Source of the DNA: Candidatus Parcubacteria bacterium | GTDB taxonomy: Bacteria; Patescibacteriota; Minisyncoccia; Phycocordibacterales; Phycocordibacteraceae | Reading direction: 5' to 3' | DNA length: 64,000 nucleotides | Assembly: GCA_034666125.1 (NCBI GenBank) | Contig: JAXDML010000002.1 | Coordinates: 4,613 to 68,612 of the forward strand | Shown here: positions 6,938 to 64,000 of the stretch, one piece after another | Layout of the letters: each line of letters starts with the position of its first letter | Position numbering within the stretch: the stretch's first letter is position 1 | Made by a program: the position numbers and the translations under genes | Notes under the pieces: model-generated | What the model saw: only the letters and a program-made list of their open reading frames with translations | Databases searched by the model: none | Told to the model about the DNA's origin: nothing

Positions 6938-7152
6938 TCGTACGTTCACCGAGGGTCCGTCATACTTCCTCTCGGAACGCCGATACGGGCTACGCACTCG
7001 ATGCACAGCGAATCCAAGCGAATAACGCTTCTCCACTTTTAACCCCGCATTCCGGCACCCTGTCCTTTGACTTGGGAGGTAACGCAGCGCACCAACGCGC
7101 GGCCGCTTCCTCCCGCCCCGGGTACCGCGTATTGCGGACCCGCACTACTAGC

Positions 7153-12561: not shown

Positions 12562-13104
12562 ATGACGGAAAACAATGTCATCTTTGATTTTGATTTGACG
12601 ATCGGACGCCTGGTAACAGACTGGGCTGAATGGCGAAAGGCAGTCTGGGAACTAGTAAAAACATTTGATTCCTCTTCTACCTACGGGCTAGAGCAAATCA
12701 CCCACGCTTCTCAGAATGACTTAATATTAAAATACGGCCCGGTCTTCAAAAAAGATCTCGACGAGGTAAATGAGAAGCTCGAGTCGAGCTCTATCGATAG
12801 TTTCGTGCCTAACGACAAGGTGGTCGCTTTTATACAAAGCACAGACAAGAATCTATATCTTTGGCCCTCTAATTCACATCCAACTGTATCAAAATATCTG
12901 AAGCCTCTCGGCATAGAAAAGAAGTTCCAAGCGATAGTCACGCGCGAACAGGTATCTCTACTTAAGCCTGACCCGGAAGGATTTTCTTTGATCCATAACT
13001 CCATCAATGCTCTTCATGACTACGTCCTTGTTGGAGATAGTCAATCTGACGCAACTGCTGCTTTAAATGCTGGAATGCGTTTCGTTCACGTAGACTCCTT
13101 CTAA
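12562..13104 (+). CDS. HAD-superfamily hydrolase
   Basis: HAD motif I FDFDLT and motif IV VGDSQSD. GC is markedly lower (roughly 40%) than flanking genes. Confidence 0.7.
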   Translation: MTENNVIFDFDLTIGRLVTDWAEWRKAVWELVKTFDSSSTYGLEQITHASQNDLILKYGPVFKKDLDEVNEKLESSSIDSFVPNDKVVAFIQSTDKNLYLWPSNSHPTVSKYLKPLGIEKKFQAIVTREQVSLLKPDPEGFSLIHNSINALHDYVLVGDSQSDATAALNAGMRFVHVDSF

Positions 13105-23640: not shown

Positions 23641-24387
23641 ATGAAGTCCGCACAAGTGCTTGCCCTGGGAAAATTCAAGCCAGAAGACTTGCTCGTTACG
23701 GTAAGTAAATCAAACAGAAAGATCAATCCTGCCATCGAAGAGCAGGTCGATGCCATATGGGAGGCTACTCGGAAGAAAGCGGCTGAAGAAGGCCGAGTAT
23801 GCTACAACGGAACGTCATATCGCCTGAACTCCCTTAGGGTGGAAGGAAATCAAATCAGGATAGATTTCGGATTGCTTGAATATAAAGCGCGTCAAGCACT
23901 CCCGACCATTCCAGGATATTTCGATTTGCCTGACGAGTATTATAGAAAAGGTTGCTATAGCGGAGCTACCGTGAAGTCCAGTGATGGCCGGTATCTGATC
24001 GTGGAACTCTCCGGGAAATCCATGAACATGAACAGAATTGACGTGCTTGGTGGGATCATCGAGAAGCCCACGGAGATAGTAAATGGAGGAGATGTCTTTA
24101 AAGCCCTCTACGACGAACTCGAAGAAGAGGGCTGTATACGCCTAGCGGATATCGAGGAATCCTATCTGCGTGCCATTTATATGGAAGCTAAGACGAACAT
24201 AGGTTTTTACTTTGAAATACTCTTAGGTATCTCATCCAAAGAAGTGCTAGAACGCTTTGACCGGGAAATGGACGATCAGGATATAAAGTCATTGCAATCG
24301 CTCACGTACGAAGAGTATATGCACGTGCTCCATACAGAAACGAATTCCGCAGGCAAACAACTTATGGCAGAGATCATAGCCATATAA
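23641..24387 (+). CDS. Hypothetical protein with a degenerate Nudix-box-like segment; low GC
   Basis: 248 aa; segment GGIIEKPTEIVNGGDVFKALYDELEEEG resembles a Nudix box with substituted catalytic residues. GC is roughly 48%, against about 65% in flanking genes. Confidence 0.45.
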   Translation: MKSAQVLALGKFKPEDLLVTVSKSNRKINPAIEEQVDAIWEATRKKAAEEGRVCYNGTSYRLNSLRVEGNQIRIDFGLLEYKARQALPTIPGYFDLPDEYYRKGCYSGATVKSSDGRYLIVELSGKSMNMNRIDVLGGIIEKPTEIVNGGDVFKALYDELEEEGCIRLADIEESYLRAIYMEAKTNIGFYFEILLGISSKEVLERFDREMDDQDIKSLQSLTYEEYMHVLHTETNSAGKQLMAEIIAI

Positions 24388-43078: not shown

Positions 43079-43963
43079 ATGGCAACCCTGTACCAAGACC
43101 GCTCGAATAACCTCTTCAAGACCTGGGCCCTTATGATCGGTTTCTTCATCGTGGTCATCCTGATCGGCTGGGTCATCGCCCTCTACTACAACGACTCCTC
43201 CATCCTGTATATCGCCGTCGCTTTCGCGCTCGTCATGAATGTCGGAAGCTACTGGTTCTCGGATAAGATCGTACTCAAGATGACGAACGCCAAGCCCGCG
43301 AGCCGCGAGGAATTCTTCGACCTCTATACCGTCACCGAGAACCTCGCCATCACCGCAGGGCTCCCGATGCCCAAGCTCTACGTCATCGACGATCCGGCGC
43401 CGAACGCCTTCGCAACCGGCCGCAATGAGAAACATGCCGTCGTCGCGGCCACTACCGGACTGCTCCAGCGGCTCGACCGCACCGAGCTCGAAGGGGTCAT
43501 CGCGCACGAGCTCTCGCACATCAAGAACCGGGACATGCTCGTCATGACGGTCGCGGTCGTGCTTGCGGGCTTCGTCGCCATCGTCGCCGATATCTTCCTG
43601 CGCATGTCCATGTTCGGCGGGGGAGATCGCGATAACGGGAAGGCGGGCGCACTTTTTGCCGTACTTGCCATCGTCGCCGTCATCCTTGCGCCTTTCGCGG
43701 CACAGCTCATCAAGCTCGCCATCTCACGCAGGCGGGAATATCTTGCCGATGCCTCGGGAGCGCTTCTGACCCGCTATCCGGAAGGGCTTGCGTCAGCGCT
43801 CCAGAAGATCAGCGCGGCAGCGACGCCCATGAAAAGCGCGAATCACGCGACCGCGCACCTCTTCATCGCCAATCCCTTCGGCGCGCAGGCGGGGAAGTTC
43901 GTGAATAAGCTCTTCTCCACGCATCCCCCGGTCGAAGAGCGCGTCAAGGCGCTGCTCACGTGA
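43079..43963 (+). CDS. htpX: Membrane zinc metalloprotease HtpX (M48)
   Basis: HELSHIKNRD HExxH motif; TM helices on both sides; 294 aa. Confidence 0.85.
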   Translation: MATLYQDRSNNLFKTWALMIGFFIVVILIGWVIALYYNDSSILYIAVAFALVMNVGSYWFSDKIVLKMTNAKPASREEFFDLYTVTENLAITAGLPMPKLYVIDDPAPNAFATGRNEKHAVVAATTGLLQRLDRTELEGVIAHELSHIKNRDMLVMTVAVVLAGFVAIVADIFLRMSMFGGGDRDNGKAGALFAVLAIVAVILAPFAAQLIKLAISRRREYLADASGALLTRYPEGLASALQKISAAATPMKSANHATAHLFIANPFGAQAGKFVNKLFSTHPPVEERVKALLT

Positions 43964-44110
43964 TACTTTTCCGATCAATACCCTGAAAATACGGGGCTCC
44001 AGCAGGCTACGCCTCCGGTTCCAAATCATTACGATATACTTGACATTCTGTCTATAACCTATATATAATATATCCAGTTTGAGAGTACCTTGCCAATAGA
44101 GGTATTTCTG

Positions 44111-44165
44111 GGCGGTTTCAGCCATAAGCGGCTTATATACTAGGCCTTTTACGGCTGAAACCGCC
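44111..44165. repeat. Perfect 13-bp inverted repeat (GGCGGTTTCAGCC ... GGCTGAAACCGCC) with a 29-nt AT-rich spacer
   Basis: Read directly from the sequence, inside the AT-rich 300-bp gap between htpX and the cassette at 44262. Confidence 0.5.
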
Positions 44166-44261
44166 AACCATTGATGGTGGACGGGCAGCTAGGGACCGAA
44201 GCAATCGCTAGGCTCCGACACAACCTCCACCATCCAAGCATCACCACGAAGGGAGAAGGAC

Positions 44262-45827
44262 ATGCGCTTTCCGTTCCTCGGTCGCAATCGCGACGAAGAA
44301 GAAATCGAAGATGATGAAACGATCGACGCCGGACCCGTTACGTTCGCTCAGAACAGCCTGGACCCCAGGGCGGTCGTCGGCGAGAATGCGATCGGCCAGC
44401 TCGAGGCCGCAAGCATGGCAGCGGGGCAGAGAAAGCCTCAGCCGCCTTGCGGCGATGCGGTCCGCGACCTGGTCGGCCTGACCAACGAAGTGGCGGCAGA
44501 CTATTACGACCTCAGCCGCCGGGCCCTCGACGATCTCGGCGCCCAGTTCAGGGCTATCCGCGATTCGTCCGAGCAGCCGATCGAGGGGACCAATGCCCCG
44601 AGGCTGGACCGGTTGCGTGAGAGCGCGACCGCCATCCTCAAGCAGCGGGCCGCACGGCAGGTCAAGGCCGCAAGCCGCATCAATGAGCTTGCGGCCAAGA
44701 TCCGCATCCTGACCATCGGGATCGTCGGGGACCCTGGCCGCGAGGTCAAGTCCCTGAGAGCGCTGCTCGCGCTGATCCTGATCCCGTTCGCCACGGTCGC
44801 CTTGATCCTGGAGTTCATGTTGAACTTCGACGTCGTCCGCTTTGCGAGCGATCGCATGGTGTCCACGGCGTTTTCGGTCGCGGTCTCGATCTTCGGGATC
44901 TTGTTCGCCCACCTCGCGGCCACGGGCTACCGGGTGTGGGCCACGAATCGCGACGCCAAGGCCGCGTTCCTCGACCGCTTCGGTCCGGGACGAATGGCGA
45001 TCGACCAGGAAACCGGCCAGCGCGTCAACGTCCTGCCGATCGATGCAAAGCAGCGGCGGTTGAGCACCATCGGCCACGTCGGGCTCTTCGCCCTCGTGAG
45101 CTCGGTGCTCCTCTTCCGTCTCTATGTCATCGGGACGCAGGACGACCCCAATCTGGGGTCGATCGCCGGCACCCTCGCGTTTGCGTTCACCGTGTTCGGG
45201 CTCTACGCATTCGAGCTCTCGATGCCGGGGATCGAACATCCCCGACTGAAGGAGCTCCTCAGCATGAAGGAGGAGATGAACGACCTCCAGGGCGAGATGA
45301 GCGACCTGGAAAGCGGGGCCGACGAGTTCCGCGAGGAGCTCGACGGTCTCGTCGCCGAATACCAGCGCGACGCCGAAGCCGGGGCCGACCAGTCCCGCGC
45401 GAAGGCCGAGCAGGGCAGAGCGATCCGGGACGATTTCCTGGCGCGCTACGCCGAGCTCCAGGGGGCCAACCCCTGGTTCCGCGATCTCGCGGGGCAGCAG
45501 CTCGACGTGTTCTTCAAGTGGGTCGGGATCTCGCATCCTGACCTGCGCGAAGATCCGGCCTACCAGCCGTCCCCGGAGAACATCCGGGCGATAGTGGAGG
45601 GCAACCTCCAGCTCGAGGACGTGCCGGACTATGCCGACATCGTGAACTATGAGCCCCAGGCGGCGGACTCGACGGCAGCGGCGGGCGTGAGCTCGCAATC
45701 GCTGTTCGACGAGATCTGGTCGTCGGTCATCGGCAGCGCCGAAGCGCGCGTCCGCAAACCGGATGCGCCCGTCGTCGCGGGAATTCCTCACCCGAGGATC
45801 CGTTTGGCCGGCGTCTCCCGCCGTTAG
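44262..45827 (+). CDS. Hypothetical 4-TM membrane protein with helical N-terminal domain and C-terminal coiled-coil region
   Basis: 521 aa, strong GGGAGAAGGA RBS. About 160 aa soluble N-terminus, four hydrophobic helices (about aa 165-325), then an acidic coiled-coil-like tail. Codon usage differs from neighbours (CTG, GGG and CCC are frequent). Confidence 0.5.
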   Translation: MRFPFLGRNRDEEEIEDDETIDAGPVTFAQNSLDPRAVVGENAIGQLEAASMAAGQRKPQPPCGDAVRDLVGLTNEVAADYYDLSRRALDDLGAQFRAIRDSSEQPIEGTNAPRLDRLRESATAILKQRAARQVKAASRINELAAKIRILTIGIVGDPGREVKSLRALLALILIPFATVALILEFMLNFDVVRFASDRMVSTAFSVAVSIFGILFAHLAATGYRVWATNRDAKAAFLDRFGPGRMAIDQETGQRVNVLPIDAKQRRLSTIGHVGLFALVSSVLLFRLYVIGTQDDPNLGSIAGTLAFAFTVFGLYAFELSMPGIEHPRLKELLSMKEEMNDLQGEMSDLESGADEFREELDGLVAEYQRDAEAGADQSRAKAEQGRAIRDDFLARYAELQGANPWFRDLAGQQLDVFFKWVGISHPDLREDPAYQPSPENIRAIVEGNLQLEDVPDYADIVNYEPQAADSTAAAGVSSQSLFDEIWSSVIGSAEARVRKPDAPVVAGIPHPRIRLAGVSRR

Positions 45828-45855
45828 CACCGCTATGCGGTAGAAAGGAGCAAGC

Positions 45856-46926
45856 GTGAGAAGCAATCGTAAGGTCGCCACCAAGGGGCGCTGGAACACC
45901 TTGGCCATTACCGCAGCGGGAATTGCCGCTGTGGTCGTCGCCGGCCTCGTCATCTGGTTTCTCGTCTTTAGCGGCGCTTACGCGTCGCGGGCCGACAGCC
46001 TGGTGTTCGAGCGGGACATCGCCGTGGATCAGGGCGCGAGCCTCGATCCCACGAAGGTGCTCTCGACCGGCACGAGCCGGATCCGGCTCAACGACCTCTG
46101 TTCGGAAGAGCTCCGGAATCGCTGGGGCGCGGACGGACAGGGGGAGGACGGGGTCGGCCTCACGGCCGTCTTCGTGCGGAAGTCGGGAACGCGGATTATC
46201 TCCAGGGATACGGTCACGATTCCGTCGTGGCAGTATGCCGACGAGACCGCGCTTCCGGACCGCCGGGCGCTCGTGAGGGACCGGTGCGAAGCGCTTCGCG
46301 CGCAGAGCACCGCCTTCATGGCCCCCGTCTCGCGCAAGTGCGTGATGGCCGTGGTGGTCGACACCACGAGTGGCATGAACGCGATCCTGAGCCGGCGTGC
46401 TCGCGAGGTCATCACCGACTCGAGCGAGCGCCTCACCGGCCGGACCTGCGGGGCGGGCGGCTTCTACGCCTACCGCCTCACCGCCACCCCCTCCCAGGGG
46501 GACCGGTGGAGGGTCAATCGCGGGCCCGGCTTCGGGGCCGAGATGCGGGGGGTCGAATCGTGGCTCCTCGAATCCCAACCCGAACAGGCGGAATCCTCGG
46601 TCTTGCGGGGCCTCGCGGCCTCGCTCGTCGAGATCTCCCGCCTGCAGCCGGCCGACATTATCCGGGTCGACGTCTTCACCGACGGGCTCGAGAATGTCGG
46701 GGATCGCTCCGTTTATCGCGATCAGACCCTCCTCGATGGGGGCAACTGGCCGCGGCTCGACGTGGCATGGGATCCGAGGAGCCTCCAGCTCCGCGGATTC
46801 GATATCCACCTGCATCCGCTCCCGGGCCAGAGCGACAGGACCGCGGCTCTCACCGCCCGCGCCTTCCAATATCTGAAGGACCGTCTCGAAAGGGCGGGCG
46901 CAACGGTCACGATCGACACGCTCTAG
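45856..46926 (+). CDS. Hypothetical membrane-anchored protein with a possible vWA-like fold
   Basis: GTG start with AAAGGAG RBS. N-terminal TM (LAITAAGIAAVVVAGLVIWFLVF). VVVDTTSGM and, about 100 aa later, VDVFTDGLEN resemble vWA beta-strand / MIDAS-region motifs. Same atypical codon usage as the upstream gene. Confidence 0.45.
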   Translation: MRSNRKVATKGRWNTLAITAAGIAAVVVAGLVIWFLVFSGAYASRADSLVFERDIAVDQGASLDPTKVLSTGTSRIRLNDLCSEELRNRWGADGQGEDGVGLTAVFVRKSGTRIISRDTVTIPSWQYADETALPDRRALVRDRCEALRAQSTAFMAPVSRKCVMAVVVDTTSGMNAILSRRAREVITDSSERLTGRTCGAGGFYAYRLTATPSQGDRWRVNRGPGFGAEMRGVESWLLESQPEQAESSVLRGLAASLVEISRLQPADIIRVDVFTDGLENVGDRSVYRDQTLLDGGNWPRLDVAWDPRSLQLRGFDIHLHPLPGQSDRTAALTARAFQYLKDRLERAGATVTIDTL

Positions 46927-46963
46927 AAGGCGGTCGACGGAAATACCTCTATTACCCAAAGCC

Positions 46964-46998
46964 TGGCGCCCCTCACCGTGAGGGGCGCCTTCTTTTTA
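46964..46998 (+). terminator. Intrinsic terminator after the two-gene cassette
   Basis: GGCGCCCCTCA-CCG-TGAGGGGCGCC then TTCTTTTT. Confidence 0.6.
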
Positions 46999-47037
46999 TA
47001 TGTACAGAGGATAATTTATGCTATAACTGCGACGCAC

Positions 47038-47127
47038 GGAGACGTCGCATAGTGGTCTAGTGCACCGCCTTGGAAAGGCGGCAGGCTCGAAAGGGTCTCG
47101 AGAGTTCGAATCTCTCCGTCTCCGCCA
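47038..47127 (+). tRNA. tRNA-Ser (anticodon GGA), long variable arm, CCA encoded
   Basis: Cloverleaf read by hand: acceptor GGAGACG/CGTCTCC; anticodon stem CCGCC/GGCGG with loop TTGGAAA; long extra arm; T-arm GAGAG-TTCGAAT-CTCTC; 3' GCCA. Confidence 0.85.
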
Positions 47128-47402
47128 ACCAACCCAGGCCCTATCCACAGGTTATACAGGCTTATACACACCCCATGCTCGTCAGGAGCTGTACTTACGT
47201 TAAGAGCCGACGGCCTTACCGAAAGGCTTTATAAAAATTTCATTGACGCTTCATATCCAGAGTGCTCTACTCAGCAATAGTACGGTTCCGGGCAGGAACG
47301 ATATAGAACCCTTACCTCCTCAAAGACATGATTTTGAGGCGTTCTGTGCGTTTATTTGAAACTCATCGCGCGCTCTTCGCGTACATAAAACTATATAGAC
47401 CT

Positions 47403-50400
47403 ATGCAAAAGTCATGGACCGGGCACGTACTTCGCGCCCTACAGGCAAGCCTTTTGGGGCTCAGCCTCGTGGCGATGAACCTCGCGCCAATTACTAGCGC
47501 GCTCGCTCAAACAACCGACTCGCCCCAGCCAATTGGTCCCGAGATTAGCGACACCTCTTCTCTTACCGTAGAGGACGAAACGGAAGATGCAGAAGATGTG
47601 ATCGAGATAACGGACCCCGTCGTAGACGAGGAGACCGATACCGACGTAGGCCCTGACATCGGTGACGAGTTGGGCGACAGCGATGAATTCGGTAGTGAGT
47701 TCAAAGCGCTCTTTGCGCCCCTTGTTTCGGGCCTTACAGTGGCGGCCCAGGACGTGACGGTCCACATCTATAAGTACGTCGCGAGCCCTTCGGGAGAGGC
47801 CCTCGCTACGGGAGGAGATTCCTTCCCGATGCAGTCGAGCTGGGATGCTGAGAGCCTGGGTGGTCCAGGCGCAGGAACCTACTCGCTTTCATCCCCGACC
47901 TACAACGCCGACACCGCCCCCATGACCTCGGGAGCCGACTACGCCACCAATGAGGTTACCGGAGGCGATATCCTGCCCATAGGCGCTACGTGCGAGGCTA
48001 ATAAGTATCGCCTTGTCGGCTATCGCGACGGAACGAGCCTCTCGGCAGCCCAGAGCGATTCCATCTCCACAGCGTCCCCGAATTACAGCGACCTGACGGA
48101 AGACATGTACGTCATCGTCGTGAACGAGGACTGCGATAACCTGCCCCCTCCGCCCCCTCCTGAAATTCCTGCGTGTAACCTCGGTGACGATACGACCTTC
48201 GATACGTTCACCCTTGGTAGCGTGCATGGCCAGCATGGCTGGAGCTCTACAGGCCCCTACGACCAGGAAGTCGTTGATAACACCTACGGGTACAGCACCT
48301 TCGGGTGTAAGTCATTGCGCCTTTCGAACGCCGTCACGAGCGATTCGTTCGGAGACCAGACGTTCTCGTATTCGATCGCGAACGAAGCCGGTGAAACTGA
48401 CGCTCTGAACGATGGGATGTCTGGAGGTACGCGCCAGAATCACTTCGATGCGCAGTTTGATCTCGGTACGGCCATGGCTACCGTACAGCCAGAAATGGCG
48501 CTCTCCGTCTCTCCGGACCGTGGTGACGGCGCCCGCATGAGCTACCTCCGCTTCGAAGACCAAGCCGACGGTATCCACGTGTTCTTCTATGACGTGCAGG
48601 GCACTGACGCATCGGCTAACTTTGTCGAAACAGAGCTTCCGGGGAGCCTCAGCCGTACTGACGCGCACACCATCAAGTTCTCGATCGATTTCGTCGATGG
48701 TCCTTCAAACGACGTTGTCGAGATCTATATCGATGGTACGCCCGTTCACACGGGTACTACCTGGGAGAATTATTACCGTTTCGATCCGGAGTCGCAGGGA
48801 ACCCCTCACGACCCAGCCCTTGAGAACAAGAGCCGGACCGTCGATTCGCTTCTCTTCCGCGCAGGCGGAGGGCCTGTTCCCGCTAATGACGAGAACGGAT
48901 TCCTGTTCGACAACGTCTCGATCACCTCAGACACCGAGGCACCACAGATGTGTTCGCTCGTAAGCGATGACGTGCACACCTTCATTGGCACCATCCCGGC
49001 AACGGCTACCTTCGAGCACAATGCCTGGAGCGATGAGCTTGATGGCGACGGAGCGCTATGGATCTGGAACGCACCGCTCGTAACCGATCCAACCCAGCCC
49101 GAGACGGTTACCTTCACCCGCACCTTTGACGTTACGGGTACGCCGGGAGCAGCGACGCTTGAAATCGCGTCCGATAATATCCACACGGTCAACGTGAACG
49201 GCACAGAAATCGCTTGTGGTGGAGCTACGCAGCCTAACTACGCCTCGGTAGGCGGAGACAATACCTGCTCGATCCCCGTGGTAAGCGGTGAGAATACGAT
49301 CACCTTCACGGTGACGAACGAGGCGACACCGACCGATTCCAATCCTCAAAACAATCCAGCTGGTCTCTACTACAAGATCACTGTGCCGCAGGCATCCTGC
49401 GCCGACGTGCCTCCGGTACCGACATCTGACGTCCTGCTCTGTAAGGTAAGCGATGACGGAGTACCGCTCGCAAATTGGCAGCTCTACCTCATCAAGAACT
49501 TCGACACCGAAGGCTTCGAGGTGCCTACGAACGATCCGTCTGGAGTCAATTCGGATACGCTTACGGATGGCGTGTCGTACCTCCTCAGCGGTATCGGTAG
49601 CTGGACCAACCAGAACGGCGCGAATCCGGCCGATGCTGAGTACTCGACCACTAACGATTGGGATACGCATATGGACGGCTACGACGGCTATGGCACCGGC
49701 ATCCTCGAACTCGAAGTAGATGAAACGGATAGGAGTTGGGGTCCTTACAACGATTCCCATTCCTACAGCCAGCTCTTCGAGGGAACCGGCAGTCCCGTCA
49801 ACTTCCGCATATTCGACGGCGATACCGGCTCGCACGAGCAGAACCTCGACTGGTTCGGCGACAACGAGGGCTTCCTTCAGGTCTACGTCGACGAAGAGGT
49901 CTATGGCGGAACGACCGGAAACGACGGATGCATCACAGTTACCGACGTACCGTTCGGCGATTACACCCTCTACGAGGTGCCGCAGAGCGGCTGGTATCCG
50001 AGTGACTTCAAGGACGGCGAAGAATCCGTCGGACAGGAAGTTACCGTAGACGAAGAGCAAGAGACGTTCACGTTCGTCAATACGCCCGTCGGTAGCCTCA
50101 CCATCGTGAAGCACACGACCGGCGGCGACGGCACCTTCACCTTCGGCGTCTCCGAAGTCGATGACTACGACGACGAAGAGGAACCGGTACTTGATGCCCT
50201 CACGACCTATTCCCTGAGAGGTGTAGCGGCCCTCGCAGATGCAGAGGAAGATGAAGACGACTACGGCCCGCTCTCATTCGATATCACTACTGAAGGCGGT
50301 ACCGGATCGACGGGTTCCATTCCGCTTGATGGAGGAACGTACGACGTGACGGAAGTTGTTCCTAATAACTGGGACCTTACGGACTCGTACTGCGAGTACG

Positions 50401-52943
50401 ACGGCGGTGGGGCCGGCATCAGTATCGACCAGGGCGAACAGATCTACCTTGGCGCAGGAGACGAAGTAACCTGTCACTTCTTCGACAACAAGACCGCGGA
50501 AATAGACCAGGTAAAGGTACACATCTTCAAATATCTCTGGGAAGAGAATGAAGAGACCGAGGAGGAAGGCGACGGCGAAGCCATACCGGTCGCTGACGGC
50601 TCTGGACTCCCGCAGTTCCCGATGACCTCGACCTGGCAGGCAGCGAATCTTAACAACGGCGACTCCACGAGTGGCAGCTACGTTCTTGGCAATAACCATG
50701 GCGGAAGCAGCAGCCAATACGGCGCGGATACGAGTCCTATGGACGCTCCTGCCGACTACACGACGACCGAAACCACCGATGGCAGCGTAGTCGTGGCAAG
50801 CAAGGACCAGTGCTCGCCTGGGAAGTACGTACTTCTCGGGTACAAGTCCGGCAATACGCTCGCACAGGCTGAGGATGCTTGGATCGAAGAAACTGCACCC
50901 GTATACGAGGATCTTACGAGCGACCGCTATATCATCGTCGTGAACGAACCATGCGACGGCGAACCGGAGGAACCGGGGTCCTGCGTCATTGAAAGCGATG
51001 CGACGACGCTTGAGAGCGACGAGCCTTCCTTCATCGCGCAGTTCATCCACAGCTCGTGGACGGCGATCATCGAAGGCGCTGAATGGATCTGGGGAGATGA
51101 GGCCATAGTTGACCCTGTGGGTACCGAGACCCAGGTCTTCACCAAAACCTTCTGGATCGACAGCCTTCCGGCAACGGATGGGGAACTCCAGATCGCTGCT
51201 GATAACACGTATTCAGTCACGCTCAACGGATCACCGATCGGTGCAAGCTCAGACGAGGACAACTACACCTCAGCAAGCCAGGACACGCTCAATGTCCCGA
51301 CAAGCGCGCTCCAGCTCGGACAGAACACCCTTGAGATCACCGTGACGAACCTGCCTATGGAAGGCGGCACTGAAGAAACGAATCCCGCAGGGCTCAAGTA
51401 CAAGCTCACGCTTGACGGAGCCGACTGCTCGAACCTTCTCAAGGTGCACATCCTCAAGTACCTCGACCTCGGAGAAACGGAGGTGCAGGTCGCTGACGGC
51501 TCAGGCGCGCCAGCCTTCCCGATGCGCTCGAATTGGGATGCTGAAAACATAGGGGCAGGCTCGGGCAGCTACGTTCTTGGTGACAACCATGGCGGTTCAC
51601 CCAGCACGTACGGCGCAGATACCTCAGCGATGAGCGCTCCTGCCGACTACACGACCTATGAGGTTACGACCGGAGACGCCGACGAAGCAACGGTTAACGA
51701 CGAGAATAGCCCGGTACTCTCGGTAGGGGCTGTGTGCGTTGCTGACAAATACCGCCTCGTCGGATATCGCAGCGGCACCACGCAAAGCGGGGCTGAAACC
51801 GCGCCCCTCTCAACGACCGCGCCCGTGTTCACTGACATCACGAACGATCGCTATGTGCTTGTGATCAACGAGGATTGTGACGATGTGCTTGACGAAGGGG
51901 GAGGTAACGGCGATGAGAGCGCTACGCTCACCATCGTGAAGGAGACGCAGGGCGGTGACGGCACCTTCACCTTCGACGTTGCCGAAACAAGCATCGAGAC
52001 CGTCCTCATTGCTGACGATAGCCCGGAGGCGACGATAGCCACTTCCGAAGGGGCGGGTACAAGTGCCCCCATTACGCTCGACCCAGGTACGTATGACGTT
52101 ACCGAGAACATTCCTGAGGGATGGGACCTCGTGAATGTTTCCTGCGTGTATGACAACCAGGCGACCGGCGATGTCATCGAGGATCCGCTCGTTGGCGAGA
52201 CCATAACCGTCGACGACGGCGACGAGGTAACCTGCACCTTCACGAACGCGGTGAGCGATGGAGGGGGAGAGAATCCCGGAACGCTCCATGTGGTGAAAGT
52301 GATAGAAGGCGGTAACGGGATACCGACCGACTTCAGCTTCCAAGTCAATGGAGGTGCGCCAATCCAGATTGAAGGAGACAGCCAGAATGACCTCTCTATT
52401 GCGGCCGGTGCCTATTCGGTTATCGAAGTGGAGTCGAGCGTATATGACGCCACGTATTCCGAAGGCTGTTCGGGAACGATGCCGGCAGATGGCGACATAA
52501 CCTGCACCATTACCAACACCGCAACCGCGAATGGTGGAGGCGGCGGAGGTGGCGGAGGTGGAGGCGGTAACTCAAACAACAATAACGGACAGGTCCTCGG
52601 CGCATCGACCGAAGGACAGGTCCTCGGCAGCGAGTGCACGCTCCTCACGGCATTCATGCGCGAGGGTATGGCGAACGATTCGGCACAAGTCACAATGCTC
52701 CAGGCCTTCCTGAACGGAGAAATGGGCTCCGGCCTTCCGACCAGCGGATTCTTCGGCCCGCTCACGACCCAGGCGGTCAACAGCTTCCAGCTCAAATACT
52801 GGGAGGAGGTGCTGAAGCCATGGGCCGACATCGGTCTCGGAGAAGACCACAAGCCGACCGGCTACGTCTTCAAGACCACGCTCTGGAAGATCAACGACAT
52901 CCAGTGTCCTGACTTGGATGCACCGTTCCCGACCCTTCCGTAA
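47403..52943 (+). CDS. Giant secreted modular surface protein (1,846 aa) with C-terminal peptidoglycan-binding domain
   Basis: Start placed at MQKSWTGHVLRALQASLLGLSLVAMNLAPITSALAQ (signal peptide), inside ORF 47328-52943. Contents: acidic N-terminal region; three diverged ~130-aa repeats (VHIYKYV/VHIFKYL/VHILKYL ... VIVVNEDCD/IIVVNEPCD/VLVINEDCD); two 'WIW' beta-sandwich-like modules; three 'TIVK..GGDGTFTF'-type (DUF11 / prealbumin-like) modules; a poly-Gly/Asn linker; a C-terminal PG_binding_1-like segment (TMLQAFLNGEMGSGLPTSGFFGPLTTQAVNSFQ). Confidence 0.7.
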   Translation: MQKSWTGHVLRALQASLLGLSLVAMNLAPITSALAQTTDSPQPIGPEISDTSSLTVEDETEDAEDVIEITDPVVDEETDTDVGPDIGDELGDSDEFGSEFKALFAPLVSGLTVAAQDVTVHIYKYVASPSGEALATGGDSFPMQSSWDAESLGGPGAGTYSLSSPTYNADTAPMTSGADYATNEVTGGDILPIGATCEANKYRLVGYRDGTSLSAAQSDSISTASPNYSDLTEDMYVIVVNEDCDNLPPPPPPEIPACNLGDDTTFDTFTLGSVHGQHGWSSTGPYDQEVVDNTYGYSTFGCKSLRLSNAVTSDSFGDQTFSYSIANEAGETDALNDGMSGGTRQNHFDAQFDLGTAMATVQPEMALSVSPDRGDGARMSYLRFEDQADGIHVFFYDVQGTDASANFVETELPGSLSRTDAHTIKFSIDFVDGPSNDVVEIYIDGTPVHTGTTWENYYRFDPESQGTPHDPALENKSRTVDSLLFRAGGGPVPANDENGFLFDNVSITSDTEAPQMCSLVSDDVHTFIGTIPATATFEHNAWSDELDGDGALWIWNAPLVTDPTQPETVTFTRTFDVTGTPGAATLEIASDNIHTVNVNGTEIACGGATQPNYASVGGDNTCSIPVVSGENTITFTVTNEATPTDSNPQNNPAGLYYKITVPQASCADVPPVPTSDVLLCKVSDDGVPLANWQLYLIKNFDTEGFEVPTNDPSGVNSDTLTDGVSYLLSGIGSWTNQNGANPADAEYSTTNDWDTHMDGYDGYGTGILELEVDETDRSWGPYNDSHSYSQLFEGTGSPVNFRIFDGDTGSHEQNLDWFGDNEGFLQVYVDEEVYGGTTGNDGCITVTDVPFGDYTLYEVPQSGWYPSDFKDGEESVGQEVTVDEEQETFTFVNTPVGSLTIVKHTTGGDGTFTFGVSEVDDYDDEEEPVLDALTTYSLRGVAALADAEEDEDDYGPLSFDITTEGGTGSTGSIPLDGGTYDVTEVVPNNWDLTDSYCEYDGGGAGISIDQGEQIYLGAGDEVTCHFFDNKTAEIDQVKVHIFKYLWEENEETEEEGDGEAIPVADGSGLPQFPMTSTWQAANLNNGDSTSGSYVLGNNHGGSSSQYGADTSPMDAPADYTTTETTDGSVVVASKDQCSPGKYVLLGYKSGNTLAQAEDAWIEETAPVYEDLTSDRYIIVVNEPCDGEPEEPGSCVIESDATTLESDEPSFIAQFIHSSWTAIIEGAEWIWGDEAIVDPVGTETQVFTKTFWIDSLPATDGELQIAADNTYSVTLNGSPIGASSDEDNYTSASQDTLNVPTSALQLGQNTLEITVTNLPMEGGTEETNPAGLKYKLTLDGADCSNLLKVHILKYLDLGETEVQVADGSGAPAFPMRSNWDAENIGAGSGSYVLGDNHGGSPSTYGADTSAMSAPADYTTYEVTTGDADEATVNDENSPVLSVGAVCVADKYRLVGYRSGTTQSGAETAPLSTTAPVFTDITNDRYVLVINEDCDDVLDEGGGNGDESATLTIVKETQGGDGTFTFDVAETSIETVLIADDSPEATIATSEGAGTSAPITLDPGTYDVTENIPEGWDLVNVSCVYDNQATGDVIEDPLVGETITVDDGDEVTCTFTNAVSDGGGENPGTLHVVKVIEGGNGIPTDFSFQVNGGAPIQIEGDSQNDLSIAAGAYSVIEVESSVYDATYSEGCSGTMPADGDITCTITNTATANGGGGGGGGGGGGNSNNNNGQVLGASTEGQVLGSECTLLTAFMREGMANDSAQVTMLQAFLNGEMGSGLPTSGFFGPLTTQAVNSFQLKYWEEVLKPWADIGLGEDHKPTGYVFKTTLWKINDIQCPDLDAPFPTLP

Positions 52944-56524: not shown

Positions 56525-56529
56525 ATCTC

Positions 56530-56858
56530 GTGAGACCGGTCCGATAAGCCGAATTCTGTCCCACCGAAGTGAGGACGGTCATCTATCTGGGGTACCTGTT
56601 ACCAGGCACCTCGAGCGGCGCTCCCTATCGCTAGGGCACGGCCTTGCTCCGGGGTAAGGATTTAGCCGTTTCAGCCTGAAATCGCTCTCAGGACGCTCTG
56701 CGGGAGAGCCCCTAGCCTTTCGGCATCGGGCGTTTCTGTTCGCACCTCGCGGATCGCTCCGGACGGGCGTTACCCGCTACCTTGCTGCCTCGTAAAGAGG
56801 CCGGAGTTCGGACTTTCCTCTGGCTTGTGCCAGCGACCGTCTGGGCCGGTCTGGGAGG
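56530..56858 (-). ncRNA. rnpB: RNase P RNA (type A), rnpB
   Basis: Minus-strand transcript contains GAGGAAAGUCCGAACUCC (P4 5' strand), GGUAACGCC, CCCGGAGCAAGGCC and 3' ACAGAAUUCGGCUUAUCGGACCGGUCUC. These align collinearly with E. coli M1 RNA (GAGGAAAGUCCGGGCUCC ... CAGGUAACGCC ... CCCGGAGCAAGGCC ... ACAGAACCCGGCUUAUCGG). P1 pairing is AGACCGG/CCGGUCU. The region is about 330 nt and free of ORFs. Confidence 0.8.
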
Positions 56859-63288: not shown

Positions 63289-63359
63289 GCGGGATTCGTT
63301 CAGTGGCAGGACGCGACCTTCCCAAGGTTGAGACACGGGTTCGATTCCCGTATCCCGCA
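63289..63359 (+). tRNA. tRNA-Gly (anticodon CCC)
   Basis: Acceptor GCGGGAT/ATCCCGC; D-arm GTTCAGTGGCAGGAC-like; anticodon stem CGACC/GGTTG with loop TTCCCAA; T-arm GGGTTCGATTCCC. Starts 1 nt after the ftsB-like stop; no encoded CCA. Confidence 0.8.
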
Positions 63360-63649
63360 CAGATCATACACACGCACTCATAAGGCACGGCCTTGATACG
63401 GCTAATTGATGCGAAACGTCTTCGACGACGAATCGGGTATATTTCCGAGGTAGACCTCTTTTCATTAAAAGGAAGACTCACGGCATTGCTACCTTGAGTT
63501 CCTTGTTCCTCCGCAAACGCGGAGTAGCGCCGAAGCGATTTATACCATCAGGATAGCTTGAAGTGGAAGATGGTCAATAAAAAATTATTCTAGATCAACC
63601 AATCCTGTTGATAACCCGAAATGCTATACTACGTGCCTAATACGAATCT

Positions 63650-63949: not shown

Positions 63950-64000
63950 GCCCTCGTAGTTCAATGGATAGAACATCTCACTCCTAACGAGATAATGTAG
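63950..64000 (+). tRNA. tRNA-Arg (anticodon CCU), 5' part; continues beyond the window end
   Basis: GCCCTCG-TA-GTTC-AATGGATA-GAAC-A-TCTCA-CTCCTAA-CGAGA-TAATG... Close to E. coli tRNA-Arg(CCU) (GUCCUCUUAGUUAAAUGGAUAUAACGAGCCCCUCCUAAGGGCUAAUUG...). Confidence 0.6.

What the first reader, a model, noticed from the sequence alone, without database searches (positions are those of the whole stretch)
44262..46926. Two-gene membrane cassette with foreign codon usage between htpX and tRNA-Ser: an uncharacterised 4-TM coiled-coil protein plus a TM-anchored vWA-like protein
Seen in sequence: both genes use CTG, GGG, CCC and GAC much more than neighbouring genes, which use CTC, GGC, CCG and GCG. This suggests acquisition from a different, higher-GC donor. 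The cassette sits in its own unit: an AT-rich 300-bp upstream gap with a perfect 13-bp inverted repeat, strong RBSs, a GTG start on gene 2 with AAAGGAG, and a clean terminator at 46964-46998. It lies directly 5' of tRNA-Ser. Gene 1 (521 aa) is a soluble helical N-domain, then four TM helices, then an acidic coiled-coil C-tail. Gene 2 (356 aa) is an N-terminal TM anchor plus a domain carrying VVVDTTSGM and, about 100 aa later, VDVFTDGLEN, which is suggestive of a vWA/MIDAS fold. I do not recognise this pair as any described system. A polytopic coiled-coil membrane protein paired with a membrane-tethered vWA protein, in a compositionally foreign cassette next to a tRNA, fits a mobile defence or envelope-stress module. 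It does not match the Zorya MotA/MotB architecture: there is no conserved plug Asp and no OmpA-like domain.
Basis: partly seen in the sequence, partly recalled or inferred. Interest (0 to 1): 0.72.

Follow-up and report, generated by a model that had tools for sequence, protein, structure and literature searches.

The report
Orphan membrane operon with structured leader
The two genes are a real, always-paired membrane protein plus surface-tethered vWA protein found only in a few Patescibacteria-type genomes; they are not a foreign defence island, and the surprise is a new conserved structured leader RNA whose 5' box co-evolves with a matching box in the 3' UTR.

Summary

The pair is adjacent in all 11 distinct related loci examined, down to 20-35% identity. 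Neighbours are housekeeping genes, there is no integrase or att repeat, and PADLOC gives no significant hit.

"Foreign codon usage" is mostly wrong. The preferred codons and GC3 (0.85) match the genome. Only GGG and GCC are enriched, and relatives show the same GC offset.

New findings:
- The 300-bp "gap" holds a perfect sigma-70 promoter and a ~160-nt three-hairpin leader RNA. It is absent from Rfam, more conserved than the proteins, and has 12 compensatory pairs in 9 loci.
- A 13-16-nt box in hairpin P1 is complementary to a box between the gene 2 stop and the terminator. Both boxes co-vary in 7 loci.
- One metagenomic variant keeps this frame but carries an unrelated gene.

Function is unproven. 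The best guess is a lineage-specific envelope adhesion or sensing complex under post-transcriptional control.

The parts
44040..44069 (+). Sigma-70-type promoter TTGACA-18 nt-TATAAT, 12 of 12 consensus positions. The transcript is inferred to start near 44076.
   Evidence: TTGACA and a TATAAT-like -10 box are kept at the same position in L003, L006, L007, L008, L018 and L022.
44082..44237 (+). Conserved structured leader RNA, about 156 nt. It has three hairpins, P1, P2 and P3 (P3 holds a variable inner hairpin), joined by C/A-rich linkers.
   Evidence: The covariance model R1 scores it at 150.6 bits. The window leader folds at -77.1 kcal/mol, z = -6.5 against shuffles. In 9 loci, 96.9% of cells are paired and 12 pairs show compensatory changes. 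No shuffle out of 500 reached the observed score, and slid controls scored 0.046 or less against 0.180. No Rfam family matches at E<=1.
44084..44106 (+). Hairpin P1 (AGUACCUU ... GAGGUAUU). Its 3' strand overlaps the 5' box.
   Evidence: helix 1, with two covarying pairs. The hairpin alone folds at -8.6 kcal/mol.
44095..44108 (+). 5' box AATAGAGGTATTTC. It is perfectly complementary to the 3' box 2.8 kb downstream.
   Evidence: (I6). The cognate 5'/3' boxes are the longest complement in every locus with its own box sequence (13-16 nt), with mirrored substitutions. Duplex energy is -23.3 kcal/mol.
44110..44167 (+). Hairpin P2, a long irregular stem.
   Evidence: I1; helix 2: 24 pairs, 5 of them with compensatory changes; G.U pairs are tolerated.
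44173..44234 (+). Hairpin P3. The closing stem is GAUGGUGGA/UCCACCAUC, with a conserved internal loop ACGGRCAGCUAGG and a variable inner hairpin.
   Evidence: helices 3 and 4. The closing stem shows U-A to C-G and A-U to G-C changes in L016 and L022. The inner hairpin covaries even between L003 and L015.
44262..45827 (+). Gene 1, 521 aa. A cytoplasmic N-terminal helical bundle (about 35-155), four TM helices (about 166-320, with conserved E184 and invariant R286), and a cytoplasmic helical, acidic C-terminal domain.
45844..45850 (+). RBS AAAGGAG for gene 2. The intergenic spacer is 28 nt; in relatives the two genes are 28-42 nt apart or overlap.
45856..46926 (+). Gene 2, 356 aa, GTG start. A basic N-terminus is followed by one TM helix (about 15-38, inferred N-in) and an extracytoplasmic part. 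That part comprises a beta-rich domain (46-125), a long helix, and a vWA domain (about 160-356). The MIDAS-like residues are D169-x-T171-x-G173, S247/S248 and T275-D276. Three Cys positions are conserved in most homologues (a fourth in 5 of 7).
46940..46953 (+). 3' box GAAATACCTCTATT, the reverse complement of the 5' box. It lies 14 nt after the gene 2 stop codon and 11 nt before the terminator stem.
46965..46999 (+). Intrinsic terminator: an 11-bp G+C-rich stem followed by a T-run.
   Evidence: An equivalent hairpin plus T-run follows the 3' box in L003, L007, L008, L010, L015 and L018.

Best explanation
This is a chromosomal operon restricted to a small clade of Patescibacteria (CPR)-type bacteria. 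It is not an acquired island.

Proteins (inferred model)
- The operon most likely encodes a two-subunit envelope complex.
- Gene 1 is a 4-TM protein whose large N- and C-terminal helical domains face the cytoplasm.
- Gene 2 is anchored by one N-terminal TM helix. It displays a beta domain plus a vWA domain, with a partly preserved metal-ion site, outside the membrane.
- The tight, often overlapping gene order suggests that the two are made and assembled together.
- The inferred working model is integrin-like or PilY1-like. The exposed vWA domain would bind a ligand, such as a host-cell surface or envelope component. Binding would be coupled through the membrane helices, which hold conserved E184 and invariant R286, to the cytoplasmic helical domains.

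RNA (structure shown; mechanism inferred)
- Expression comes from the operon's own consensus promoter, through a ~160-nt three-hairpin leader RNA that belongs to no described family.
- The 3' strand of hairpin P1 is complementary to a box just before the terminator.
- The finished mRNA could therefore swap the weak P1 hairpin (-4 to -15 kcal/mol) for a 13-16-bp 5'-3' duplex (-22 to -28 kcal/mol), closing the transcript into a panhandle.
- I infer that this duplex, together with factor binding at the invariant loops of P2 and P3, sets mRNA stability, processing or translation.
- The promoter, leader, 3' box and terminator behave as a reusable expression frame. In one related genome the same frame carries an unrelated membrane coiled-coil gene.

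Status of each step
- Shown here: gene structure, vWA fold, pair conservation, RNA secondary structure, co-variation of the boxes, and the alternative cargo.
- Inferred: membrane topology, complex formation, ligand sensing, and any RNA-level mechanism.
For: Pair conservation
- Gene 2 homologues are preceded by a gene 1 homologue in all 11 distinct related loci examined. This holds down to about 20% identity for gene 1 and 33-37% for gene 2.
- Spacers are short, or the reading frames overlap.

Chromosomal, vertical inheritance
- L003, L008 and L018 share DEAD helicase ... pair ... Zincin_1 synteny.
- All neighbourhoods are housekeeping genes.
- L013 is a Candidatus Liptonbacteria genome, in the Parcubacteria group of Patescibacteria.
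- Codon choice is native.

Proteins
- D169, T171, S247, S248, T275 and D276 are invariant. They sit at the beta1 end, before a helix, and at the beta4 end, as MIDAS residues do.
- Three Cys positions are conserved in 6 of 7 homologues (a fourth in 5 of 7), and a DsbA gene lies next door in L003 and L008. Both fit an extracytoplasmic location.
- Gene 1 AF2 model has pLDDT 86.7, with four TM helices. Basic residues flank the predicted cytoplasmic sides.

Leader RNA
- Supported.

5'/3' boxes
- Mirrored substitutions occur in win, L003, L006, L007, L008, L015 and L018.
- The cognate duplex is the most stable in every row of the matrix except L015, whose box is identical to L003's.
- Both boxes always lie inside the predicted transcript, after the -10 box and before the terminator.
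- The remote locus L012 has an unrelated 11-nt 5'/3' complement, matched by 1 of 300 shuffles.

Alternative cargo
- L015 compared with L004: the leader is 98.2% identical up to the end of P3. The stretch from the 3' box through Zincin_1 is 91.5% identical. The cargo between them is unrelated.
Against: - No experiment or transcript data exist. Function is inferred from fold and topology only.
- The vWA fold is generic, and the MIDAS site is non-canonical because the second Ser is Gly.
- Complex formation was not modelled.
- The 5'/3' boxes are perfectly Watson-Crick in six loci and show no G.U pair in any of the seven loci examined, although the leader stems tolerate G.U. This would also fit a DNA-level inverted repeat. 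L018 does have one U.C mismatch.
- A 13-16-bp duplex is short for an RNase III site.
- The alternative-cargo case rests on one 2.9-kb metagenomic contig.
- The leader was not detected in the most remote pairs (L012, L013, L017), so it is not obligatory for the proteins.
- The cassette is the top tetranucleotide outlier in the window (z 3.3).
Confidence: 0.5

Rival explanations
1. The boxes act at the DNA level. They would be inverted-repeat recombination sites, making the whole operon an invertible (phase-variable ON/OFF) or exchangeable cassette downstream of a fixed promoter. This is how some surface adhesins are switched.
For: - Perfect inverted repeats bracket the cargo exactly, with the promoter outside them.
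- No G.U pair occurs in about 100 box base pairs, although G.U pairs are common in the leader stems.
- The cargo differs between L004 and L015 exactly between the end of the leader and the 3' box.
- The product is a surface-exposed vWA protein, the kind of protein that is often phase-varied.
Against: - All 8 loci with both ends, or with the leader, show the same orientation.
- No recombinase appears among the genes called in any locus table.
- Box identity ends sharply at 13-16 bp, with no flanking binding arms.
- L018 has a central mismatch, which would block a crossover that needs core identity.
- Both boxes always sit within the transcript, and the 5' box is half of a covarying RNA hairpin.
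- The cargo swap leaves P2 and P3, which lie inside the repeats, unchanged.
Confidence: 0.13
2. Envelope-stress or quality-control module. The pair would be induced, through the leader, when the membrane or envelope is damaged. It would act alongside neighbours such as HtpX, DsbA and MsrA/MsrB. In this reading it is not an adhesion or ligand sensor.
For: - In the window, the pair follows groES-groEL-lemA-DUF6159-NUDIX-htpX.
- In L003, L008 and L009 it follows dsbA. In L008 it is near PAP2, VTT, Zincin_1, msrA and msrB.
- The alternative cargo in L015 is also a membrane coiled-coil protein.
- An elaborate leader implies conditional expression.
Against: - The association is only positional, and neighbours differ in other loci: L32 and RNase HII, RNase III, TatD-S6-SSB, UvrA and UvrC.
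- No domain in either protein points to proteolysis, folding or repair.
- Small Patescibacteria genomes pack unrelated genes tightly together.
Confidence: 0.17
3. One reading: a horizontally acquired anti-phage defence (or similar accessory) module inserted next to tRNA-Ser.
For: - It is a two-gene orphan cassette with its own promoter and terminator.
- It has the highest tetranucleotide deviation in the window and raised GC.
- It sits next to a tRNA.
- The family is tiny and patchy: 42 clusters.
- Genomic contexts vary, and the cargo is replaceable.
Against: - PADLOC gives nothing at E<=0.001 for the pair (best: a weak BrxHII coiled-coil match, E 0.006) and nothing at E<=0.01 for relatives and the alternative cargo; PHROGs has no hit at E<=0.05.
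- The leader pattern has no hit in viral contigs.
- Preferred codons and GC3 are native.
- Most relatives show the same GC offset in their own genomes.
- There is no integrase, no att repeat, and the cassette is on the 5' side of the tRNA.
- Synteny is conserved across diverged genomes.
- No defence genes lie nearby.
Confidence: 0.06
4. Ion-driven stator-like machine analogous to MotAB, ExbBD, TolQR or ZorAB. A polytopic A subunit with long cytoplasmic helices would pair with a single-pass B subunit carrying a periplasmic domain.
For: - The overall two-gene architecture fits: a polytopic helical protein followed by an N-terminally anchored protein with an outside domain.
- Conserved charged residues lie inside the gene 1 membrane helices. 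E184 is present in 23 of 29 sequences and R286 in 29 of 29.
Against: - PADLOC Zorya models are silent.
- The gene 2 TM helix has no Asp or Glu in any homologue.
- The outside domain is vWA, not OmpA-like or peptidoglycan-binding.
Confidence: 0.05

Closest known systems
Bacterial surface and pilus-associated vWA proteins. Examples are the GBS104 tip pilin, PitA, the PilB minor pilin of S. sanguinis (PMC8179133) and the PilY1 vWA surface sensor (PMC9210963).
   Different: Sequence identity is only 8-13%, and Pfam VWA models give no hit. The MIDAS is DxTxG instead of DxSxS. The protein is anchored by its own N-terminal TM helix, with no sortase or pilin signal. It has an obligate 4-TM partner that those systems lack.
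Zorya ZorA/ZorB and the MotAB / ExbBD stator family
   Same: The gene order and gross architecture match: a polytopic helical membrane protein with a long cytoplasmic helical tail, followed by a single-pass protein with an outside domain.
   Different: No sequence or fold similarity. No TM Asp in the small subunit. The outside domain is vWA, not OmpA-like. There are no ZorC or ZorD genes and no defence-island context.
mRNAs with a 5'/3'-UTR interaction: S. aureus icaR (PMC3868564) and B. subtilis hbs (PMC5737220)
   Same: Complementary segments in the 5' and 3' UTRs of one transcript are expected to pair and affect stability or translation. The 3' box (UACCUCU) looks like an anti-Shine-Dalgarno sequence, as in icaR.
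   Different: Here the 5' partner is not the gene's RBS. It lies about 150 nt upstream, inside a leader hairpin. The pairing spans a 2.8-kb two-gene operon. It is embedded in a larger conserved structured leader, co-varies across genomes, and the frame is reused for a different cargo. Nothing has been shown experimentally.
Cis-regulatory structured leaders, such as riboswitches and protein-binding leaders catalogued in Rfam
   Same: It is a 5' UTR element of about 160 nt with covarying stems and invariant internal loops, upstream of membrane-protein genes.
   Different: No Rfam 15 family matches, even at E<=1. No ligand or binding protein is known. No obvious terminator or SD-sequestering expression platform was found. 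It has an added long-range partner in the 3' UTR.
Invertible DNA switches flanked by inverted repeats, such as fimS and the C. difficile cwpV switch. This comparison rests on my own knowledge of those systems.
   Same: Short inverted repeats sit downstream of a fixed promoter, and the system controls a surface protein.
   Different: The repeats enclose the whole 2.8-kb operon. Only one orientation is seen, in 8 loci. No recombinase is nearby. The 5' repeat forms part of an RNA hairpin that covaries.

Membership tests
von Willebrand factor type A (vWA) domain superfamily (gene 2) | Alpha/beta Rossmann-like vWA fold | tested here: met
von Willebrand factor type A (vWA) domain superfamily (gene 2) | Significant match to curated sequence models (Pfam VWA families, NCBIfam) | tested here: not met
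   No VWA family appears even at E<=1. A profile search of PDB sequences also finds none.
von Willebrand factor type A (vWA) domain superfamily (gene 2) | Complete MIDAS motif DxSxS ... T ... D | tested here: inconclusive
   D169-T-T171-S-G173 lies at the end of beta1. Invariant S247/S248 lie before a helix. T275-D276-G lies at the end of beta4. The first Asp, a hydroxyl residue and the last Asp are kept, but the second Ser is Gly. Metal binding was not testable here.
Zorya type I/II (ZorA/ZorB) and MotAB-like stators | ZorA/ZorB (MotA/MotB-like) sequence models | tested here: not met
   PADLOC returns only weak coiled-coil matches to BrxHII and LmuB (E 0.006 and 0.12). No Zor model is hit.
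Zorya type I/II (ZorA/ZorB) and MotAB-like stators | MotA/ExbB-type fold of the large subunit | tested here: not met
Zorya type I/II (ZorA/ZorB) and MotAB-like stators | Conserved protonatable Asp in the TM helix of the small subunit, plus an OmpA-like or peptidoglycan-binding outside domain | tested here: not met
   No D or E occurs in the TM helix of any of 7 gene 2 homologues. The outside domain is vWA.
Known anti-phage defence systems (PADLOC-DB 2.0) | Any component model hit, or location in a defence island | tested here: not met
   No hit at E<=0.001 for the window pair (best: BrxHII coiled-coil match, E 0.006); none at E<=0.01 for the L012 or L018 pairs, the L015 cargo or the 87-aa protein. 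Neighbours are housekeeping genes in all loci.
tRNA-associated genomic island | Integrase gene, direct repeat of the tRNA 3' end, and insertion at the tRNA 3' side | tested here: not met
   No repeat of the tRNA-Ser 3' end within 64 kb. The cassette is upstream (5') of the tRNA. No integrase appears among called genes. Orthologous pairs elsewhere are not next to tRNAs.
tRNA-associated genomic island | Foreign nucleotide composition or codon usage | tested here: inconclusive
   The tetranucleotide distance is the highest of 205 windows (z 3.3). However, GC3 and preferred codons are native, and five of six relatives compared show the same GC excess in their own genomes.
Rfam RNA families (leader RNA) | Covariance-model match | tested here: not met
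   No hit at E<=1 in 43800-47400. No hit at gathering score in the window or in 7 related loci.
5'/3'-UTR-pairing mRNAs (icaR / hbs type) | Complementary 5' and 3' UTR segments within one transcript, maintained by selection | tested here: met
   A 13-16-nt complement lies inside the promoter-to-terminator span in 7 loci, with mirrored substitutions. The cognate pairing is best in every locus with its own box sequence.
5'/3'-UTR-pairing mRNAs (icaR / hbs type) | Pairing occurs in the RNA and changes translation or decay; in icaR the 5' partner is the SD | not testable with these tools
   No transcript or probing data exist. The 5' box is about 150 nt upstream of the start codon, so it is not the RBS.
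Invertible DNA switch | Both orientations present in populations, and a cognate recombinase | tested here: not met
   Only one orientation appears in 8 assembled loci. No recombinase is seen in the locus tables. Read-level data were not available, so rare inversion is not excluded.

The most novel reading that the evidence does not exclude
The promoter, three-hairpin leader, 5'/3' box pair and terminator together form a previously undescribed, portable RNA-level 'expression frame' in Patescibacteria. The frame circularises its mRNA by a co-evolving UTR clamp. It responds to an unknown signal through the invariant loops of P2 and P3. It can be loaded with different membrane-protein cargos. The gene 1 / gene 2 pair would be its main cargo and a new kind of outside-in surface sensor used by these episymbiotic bacteria.
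Probability: 0.25. Interest if true: 0.85.

Novelty: new variant of a known kind. Interest (0 to 1): 0.62.

Why it matters
**Proteins.** Patescibacteria (CPR) make up a large share of bacterial diversity. Those cultivated so far live attached to other cells, yet most of their envelope proteins have no known function. This work gives two things:
- a confidently modelled, strictly paired membrane complex with an exposed vWA domain, which is a concrete candidate for host or surface contact;
- a 4-TM protein with a fold not seen in the PDB.

**RNA.** The RNA finding is the more general one. It is a new structured leader family with strong covariation, joined to a co-evolving 5'/3' UTR clamp that spans a whole operon.
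- Only a few bacterial examples of 5'/3' UTR pairing are known (icaR, hbs).
- As far as I know, none of those is conserved with compensatory changes across genomes or reused for different cargo.
- If the pairing is real, it is a clean natural system for studying mRNA end-to-end communication in bacteria.

**Limits of composition evidence.** The case also shows that raised GC and a tRNA neighbour are not enough to call a region foreign.

Tried and rejected
**Family and structure searches**
- Pfam, NCBIfam, PADLOC and PHROGs gave nothing significant for either protein, the alternative cargo or the 87-aa protein.
- PDB sequence-profile searches gave nothing.
- The AFDB50 fold library was unavailable.

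**Homologue searches**
- The word-indexed homologue search found only one gene 1 relative, even with a 7-sequence profile.
- The exhaustive representative search was needed to find the gene 1 family.

**Leader DNA pattern scans**
- GTDB species representatives: 0 hits.
- Viral contigs: 0 hits.
- JGI metagenomes: 2 hits.
- The frame's wider distribution is therefore unknown.

**Ideas rejected**
- A small peptide encoded in the leader, starting at the ATG inside P3. Rejected because there is no RBS, indels between loci are not multiples of three, and third positions are invariant.
- A tRNA-linked island. Rejected.
- Extra near-copies of the 5' box at 2251 and 14417. These look like chance.
- The 570-aa antisense ORF at 44241-45953. 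It is an artefact of high GC: its GC3 is 0.68 against 0.85 on the sense strand, and homologues support the + strand.
- Homology between the L015 cargo and gene 1. Rejected (hhalign probability 0.2%).

**Not possible**
- MAFFT could not place the paired 1-nt indel of L006 in the box alignment. The box co-variation was therefore counted by script.
- The R1 leader was not detected in L012, L013 or L017.

Full report
**1. The observation**

The window has two co-directional ORFs at 44262-45827 (521 aa, ATG) and 45856-46926 (356 aa, GTG). They are separated by 28 nt carrying AAAGGAG. A 298-bp gap with GC 0.48 precedes them. A strong intrinsic terminator follows at 46965-46989 plus a T-run, then tRNA-Ser(GGA) at 47038-47127.

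Upstream lie groES, groEL, lemA, DUF6159, a NUDIX gene and htpX. Downstream lies an 1871-aa protein with no family match.

The perfect 13-bp inverted repeat exists and is part of a longer hairpin at 44111-44165. A 570-aa ORF antisense to gene 1 is a high-GC artefact. Its GC3 is 0.68, against 0.85 for the sense frame, and all homologues are on the + strand.

**2. Composition**

CTC, GGC, CCG and GAC remain the preferred codons in both genes, at about genome frequency. GC3 is 0.85, against 0.82-0.84 in the neighbours. Only GGG (0.41 and 0.37, against 0.20), GCC and GTC are enriched. The per-gene codon G-statistics (95 and 94) are at the high end of the range for genes of similar length (44-113), but inside it.

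The cassette is nevertheless the most deviant 2.7-kb tetranucleotide window of 205 (z 3.3), and its GC is 0.66-0.68. The excess lies in codon positions 1 and 2, reflecting Arg/Ala/Gly/Asp-rich, Lys-poor proteins. In five of the six related loci compared, the pair is likewise GC-richer than its surroundings. This is a property of the protein family, not a mark of recent transfer.

The window holds no copy of the tRNA 3' end. No integrase appears among the called genes. The cassette also lies on the 5' side of the tRNA.

**3. The proteins**

Neither protein matches Pfam, NCBIfam, PADLOC or PHROGs at a meaningful level, nor PDB sequences by profile.

*Gene 2*
- Modelled from 7 homologues (pLDDT 82.9), it has a basic N-terminus and one TM helix (about 15-38).
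- The rest comprises a beta-rich domain, a long helix and a C-terminal alpha/beta domain.
- Invariant residues sit at the MIDAS positions: D169-x-T171-x-G173 after beta1, S247/S248, and T275-D276-G after beta4.
- This gives a vWA fold with a non-canonical metal site.
- The positive-inside rule places the vWA domain outside the cell. Three Cys positions conserved in 6 of 7 homologues (a fourth in 5 of 7), and an adjacent dsbA in L003 and L008, fit this placement. The placement is an inference.

*Gene 1*
- Modelled from 29 homologues (pLDDT 86.7), it is all-helical.
- It has an N-terminal bundle (35-155), four hydrophobic helices (166-320) and a helical acidic C-terminal domain.
- R286 and G156 are invariant, and E184 is present in 23 of 29 sequences.
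- An exhaustive HMMER scan of 1.84 billion representatives finds only 42 related clusters, nearly all about 500 aa long.

**4. Conservation of the pair**

The pair is conserved in every locus recovered.
- All seven gene 2 homologues from the word-indexed search are directly preceded by a gene 1-like ORF.
- The two relatives among GTDB species representatives also have the upstream partner. One is a Candidatus Liptonbacteria MAG in the Parcubacteria group of Patescibacteria. The other is a MAG labelled Bdellovibrionales.
- Remote gene 1 homologues P0012, P0013, P0014, P0016 and P0024 were traced to contigs. In every contig long enough to show the downstream gene (all except the P0012 contig L016, which ends after 33 codons of the next ORF), it is a gene 2 homologue.
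- In the L012/L017 clade, a conserved 87-aa protein (67% identity between the two) precedes the pair.

Neighbourhoods are housekeeping genes and differ between lineages. However, L003, L008 and L018 share DEAD helicase ... pair ... Zincin_1 synteny, although their gene 1 proteins are only 25-41% identical to the window protein. This argues for vertical chromosomal inheritance. No defence genes, phage genes or mobile-element genes accompany the pair in any locus.

**5.

The upstream 'gap' is the most conserved part of the locus.
- It holds a 12/12 consensus promoter at 44040-44069.
- From about 44082 to 44237, a sequence follows that is far more conserved across loci than the proteins.
- RNAalifold predicts three hairpins, P1, P2 and P3, with an inner hairpin in P3.
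- The window sequence folds at -77 kcal/mol, z = -6.5.
- A covariance model finds exactly one copy per pair locus. It also finds more divergent copies in L016, L018 and L022, where gene 1 is only 20-26% identical.
- On nine leaders, 96.9% of cells form standard pairs, and 12 pairs in all four helices show compensatory changes.
- No shuffle out of 500 reaches the observed score, and slid controls fall to 0.046 or less against 0.180.
- Internal loops and parts of the stems are invariant, which suggests specific recognition by a protein, a ligand or tertiary contacts.
- Rfam 15 has no match, even at E<=1.
- A leader peptide is unlikely. There is no RBS, and indels between loci break the reading frame.

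**6. The 5'/3' boxes**

A 14-nt box in the 3' strand of P1 (44095-44108) is the perfect reverse complement of 46940-46953. That second box lies between the gene 2 stop codon and the terminator.

The same arrangement occurs in L003, L006, L007, L008, L015 and L018. The substitutions, and one paired 1-nt indel, are mirrored between the two boxes:

| Locus | 5' box | 3' box |
|---|---|---|
| L006 | ATACGAGGTATGT | ACATACCTCGTAT |
| L007 | CAATAGAAGTATTC | GAATACTTCTATTG |
| L018 | CAATAGAGGTTAGTAC | GTACTACCCTCTATTG (one U.C mismatch) |

- Cognate pairs give the longest complement (13-16 nt) and the most stable duplex (-21.7 to -28.3 kcal/mol) in every row of an all-against-all matrix, apart from L015, whose 5' box is identical to L003's.
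- The competing P1 hairpin is worth only -3.8 to -15.2 kcal/mol.
- Both boxes always lie inside the predicted transcript.
- The remote locus L012 lacks this leader but has an unrelated 11-nt 5'/3' complement in the equivalent places, matched by 1 of 300 shuffles.
- I therefore favour RNA-level pairing of the mRNA ends, in the manner of icaR (PMC3868564) and hbs (PMC5737220).
- The absence of any G.U pair in the boxes keeps a DNA-level explanation alive, with the boxes as inverted-repeat recombination sites.
- Against that explanation: only one orientation is seen in eight loci, no recombinase is nearby, and L018 has a central mismatch.

**7. Alternative cargo**

The leader pattern found a second contig, L015, in the same metagenome as L004.
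- Its leader is 98.2% identical to that of L004 up to the last base of P3.
- From the 3' box through the terminator and the Zincin_1 gene it is 91.5% identical.
- Between these points lies a single unrelated 382-aa membrane coiled-coil gene instead of the pair.
- The promoter, leader, 3' box and terminator thus behave as a frame whose cargo can differ.
- This rests on one contig and needs confirmation.

**8. Interpretation**

The data refute 'foreign, tRNA-linked, mobile defence cassette'. They support a lineage-restricted chromosomal operon for a two-subunit envelope complex under elaborate post-transcriptional control.

The most likely role is binding or sensing of an external ligand by the exposed vWA domain, coupled through the 4-TM partner to the cytoplasm. 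This rests on fold, topology and the lifestyle of these bacteria, and it is unproven. An envelope-stress role is a reasonable alternative, given recurring neighbours such as htpX, dsbA and msrAB. A MotAB/Zorya-like stator is disfavoured by every test run.

**9. Novelty and score**

- The protein pair is an undescribed family pair: one vWA-fold member and one fold without a PDB relative.
- The leader is a new RNA family.
- The co-varying operon-spanning UTR clamp with exchangeable cargo is a new variant of a rarely documented kind of regulation.
- Interest is 0.62.

Noticed in passing
L015:1-1400 (JGI Ga0172380_10068275), compared with L004/L003: The same leader (98% identical) and the same 3' box, terminator and Zincin_1 gene (91.5% identical) enclose an unrelated single 382-aa membrane coiled-coil gene instead of the pair. 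Both contigs begin at the identical leader base, which suggests an assembly-graph fork at that point.
   Followed up: partly
L012:4116-4376 and L017:771-1031: In the most remote clade, a conserved 87-aa protein (67% identity between the two loci, no family match) precedes the pair, making a three-gene operon. That clade lacks the R1 leader but has its own conserved upstream sequence.
   Followed up: partly
L012:3943-3953 and 7021-7031: An 11-nt perfect complement (TAAAAGCTGTT) links the start of the predicted transcript to the region between the gene 2 stop and the terminator. It is unrelated in sequence to the window's boxes and was matched by 1 of 300 shuffles.
   Followed up: partly
window 12562-13104 and 23641-24387: Two ORFs have GC 0.435 and 0.459 and GC3 about 0.46-0.51, in a genome with about 0.60 GC. 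They are much clearer compositional outliers than the cassette under study.
   Followed up: no
window 47328-52943: An 1871-aa protein has internally repeated segments, acidic stretches and a poly-Gly run. It has no NCBIfam hit and is nearly as deviant in tetranucleotide composition as the cassette. It may be a giant surface protein.
   Followed up: no
window 56529-56852 (-): A bacterial class A RNase P RNA (132 bits). Also present are tRNA-Gly(CCC) at 63289-63360 and a truncated tRNA at 63950-64000.
   Followed up: no
window 44095-44108 / 46940-46953: The 5' box contains an SD-like GAGGU and the 3' box an anti-SD-like ACCUC. The freed 5' strand of P1 (ACCUU) could in principle pair with the AAGG of the two RBSs. 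No conserved start codon follows the SD-like box.
   Followed up: partly
window 44241-45953 (-): A 570-aa ORF lies antisense to the whole of gene 1. It is judged spurious on GC3 pattern and homologue strand, and it would mislead a longest-ORF gene caller.
   Followed up: yes
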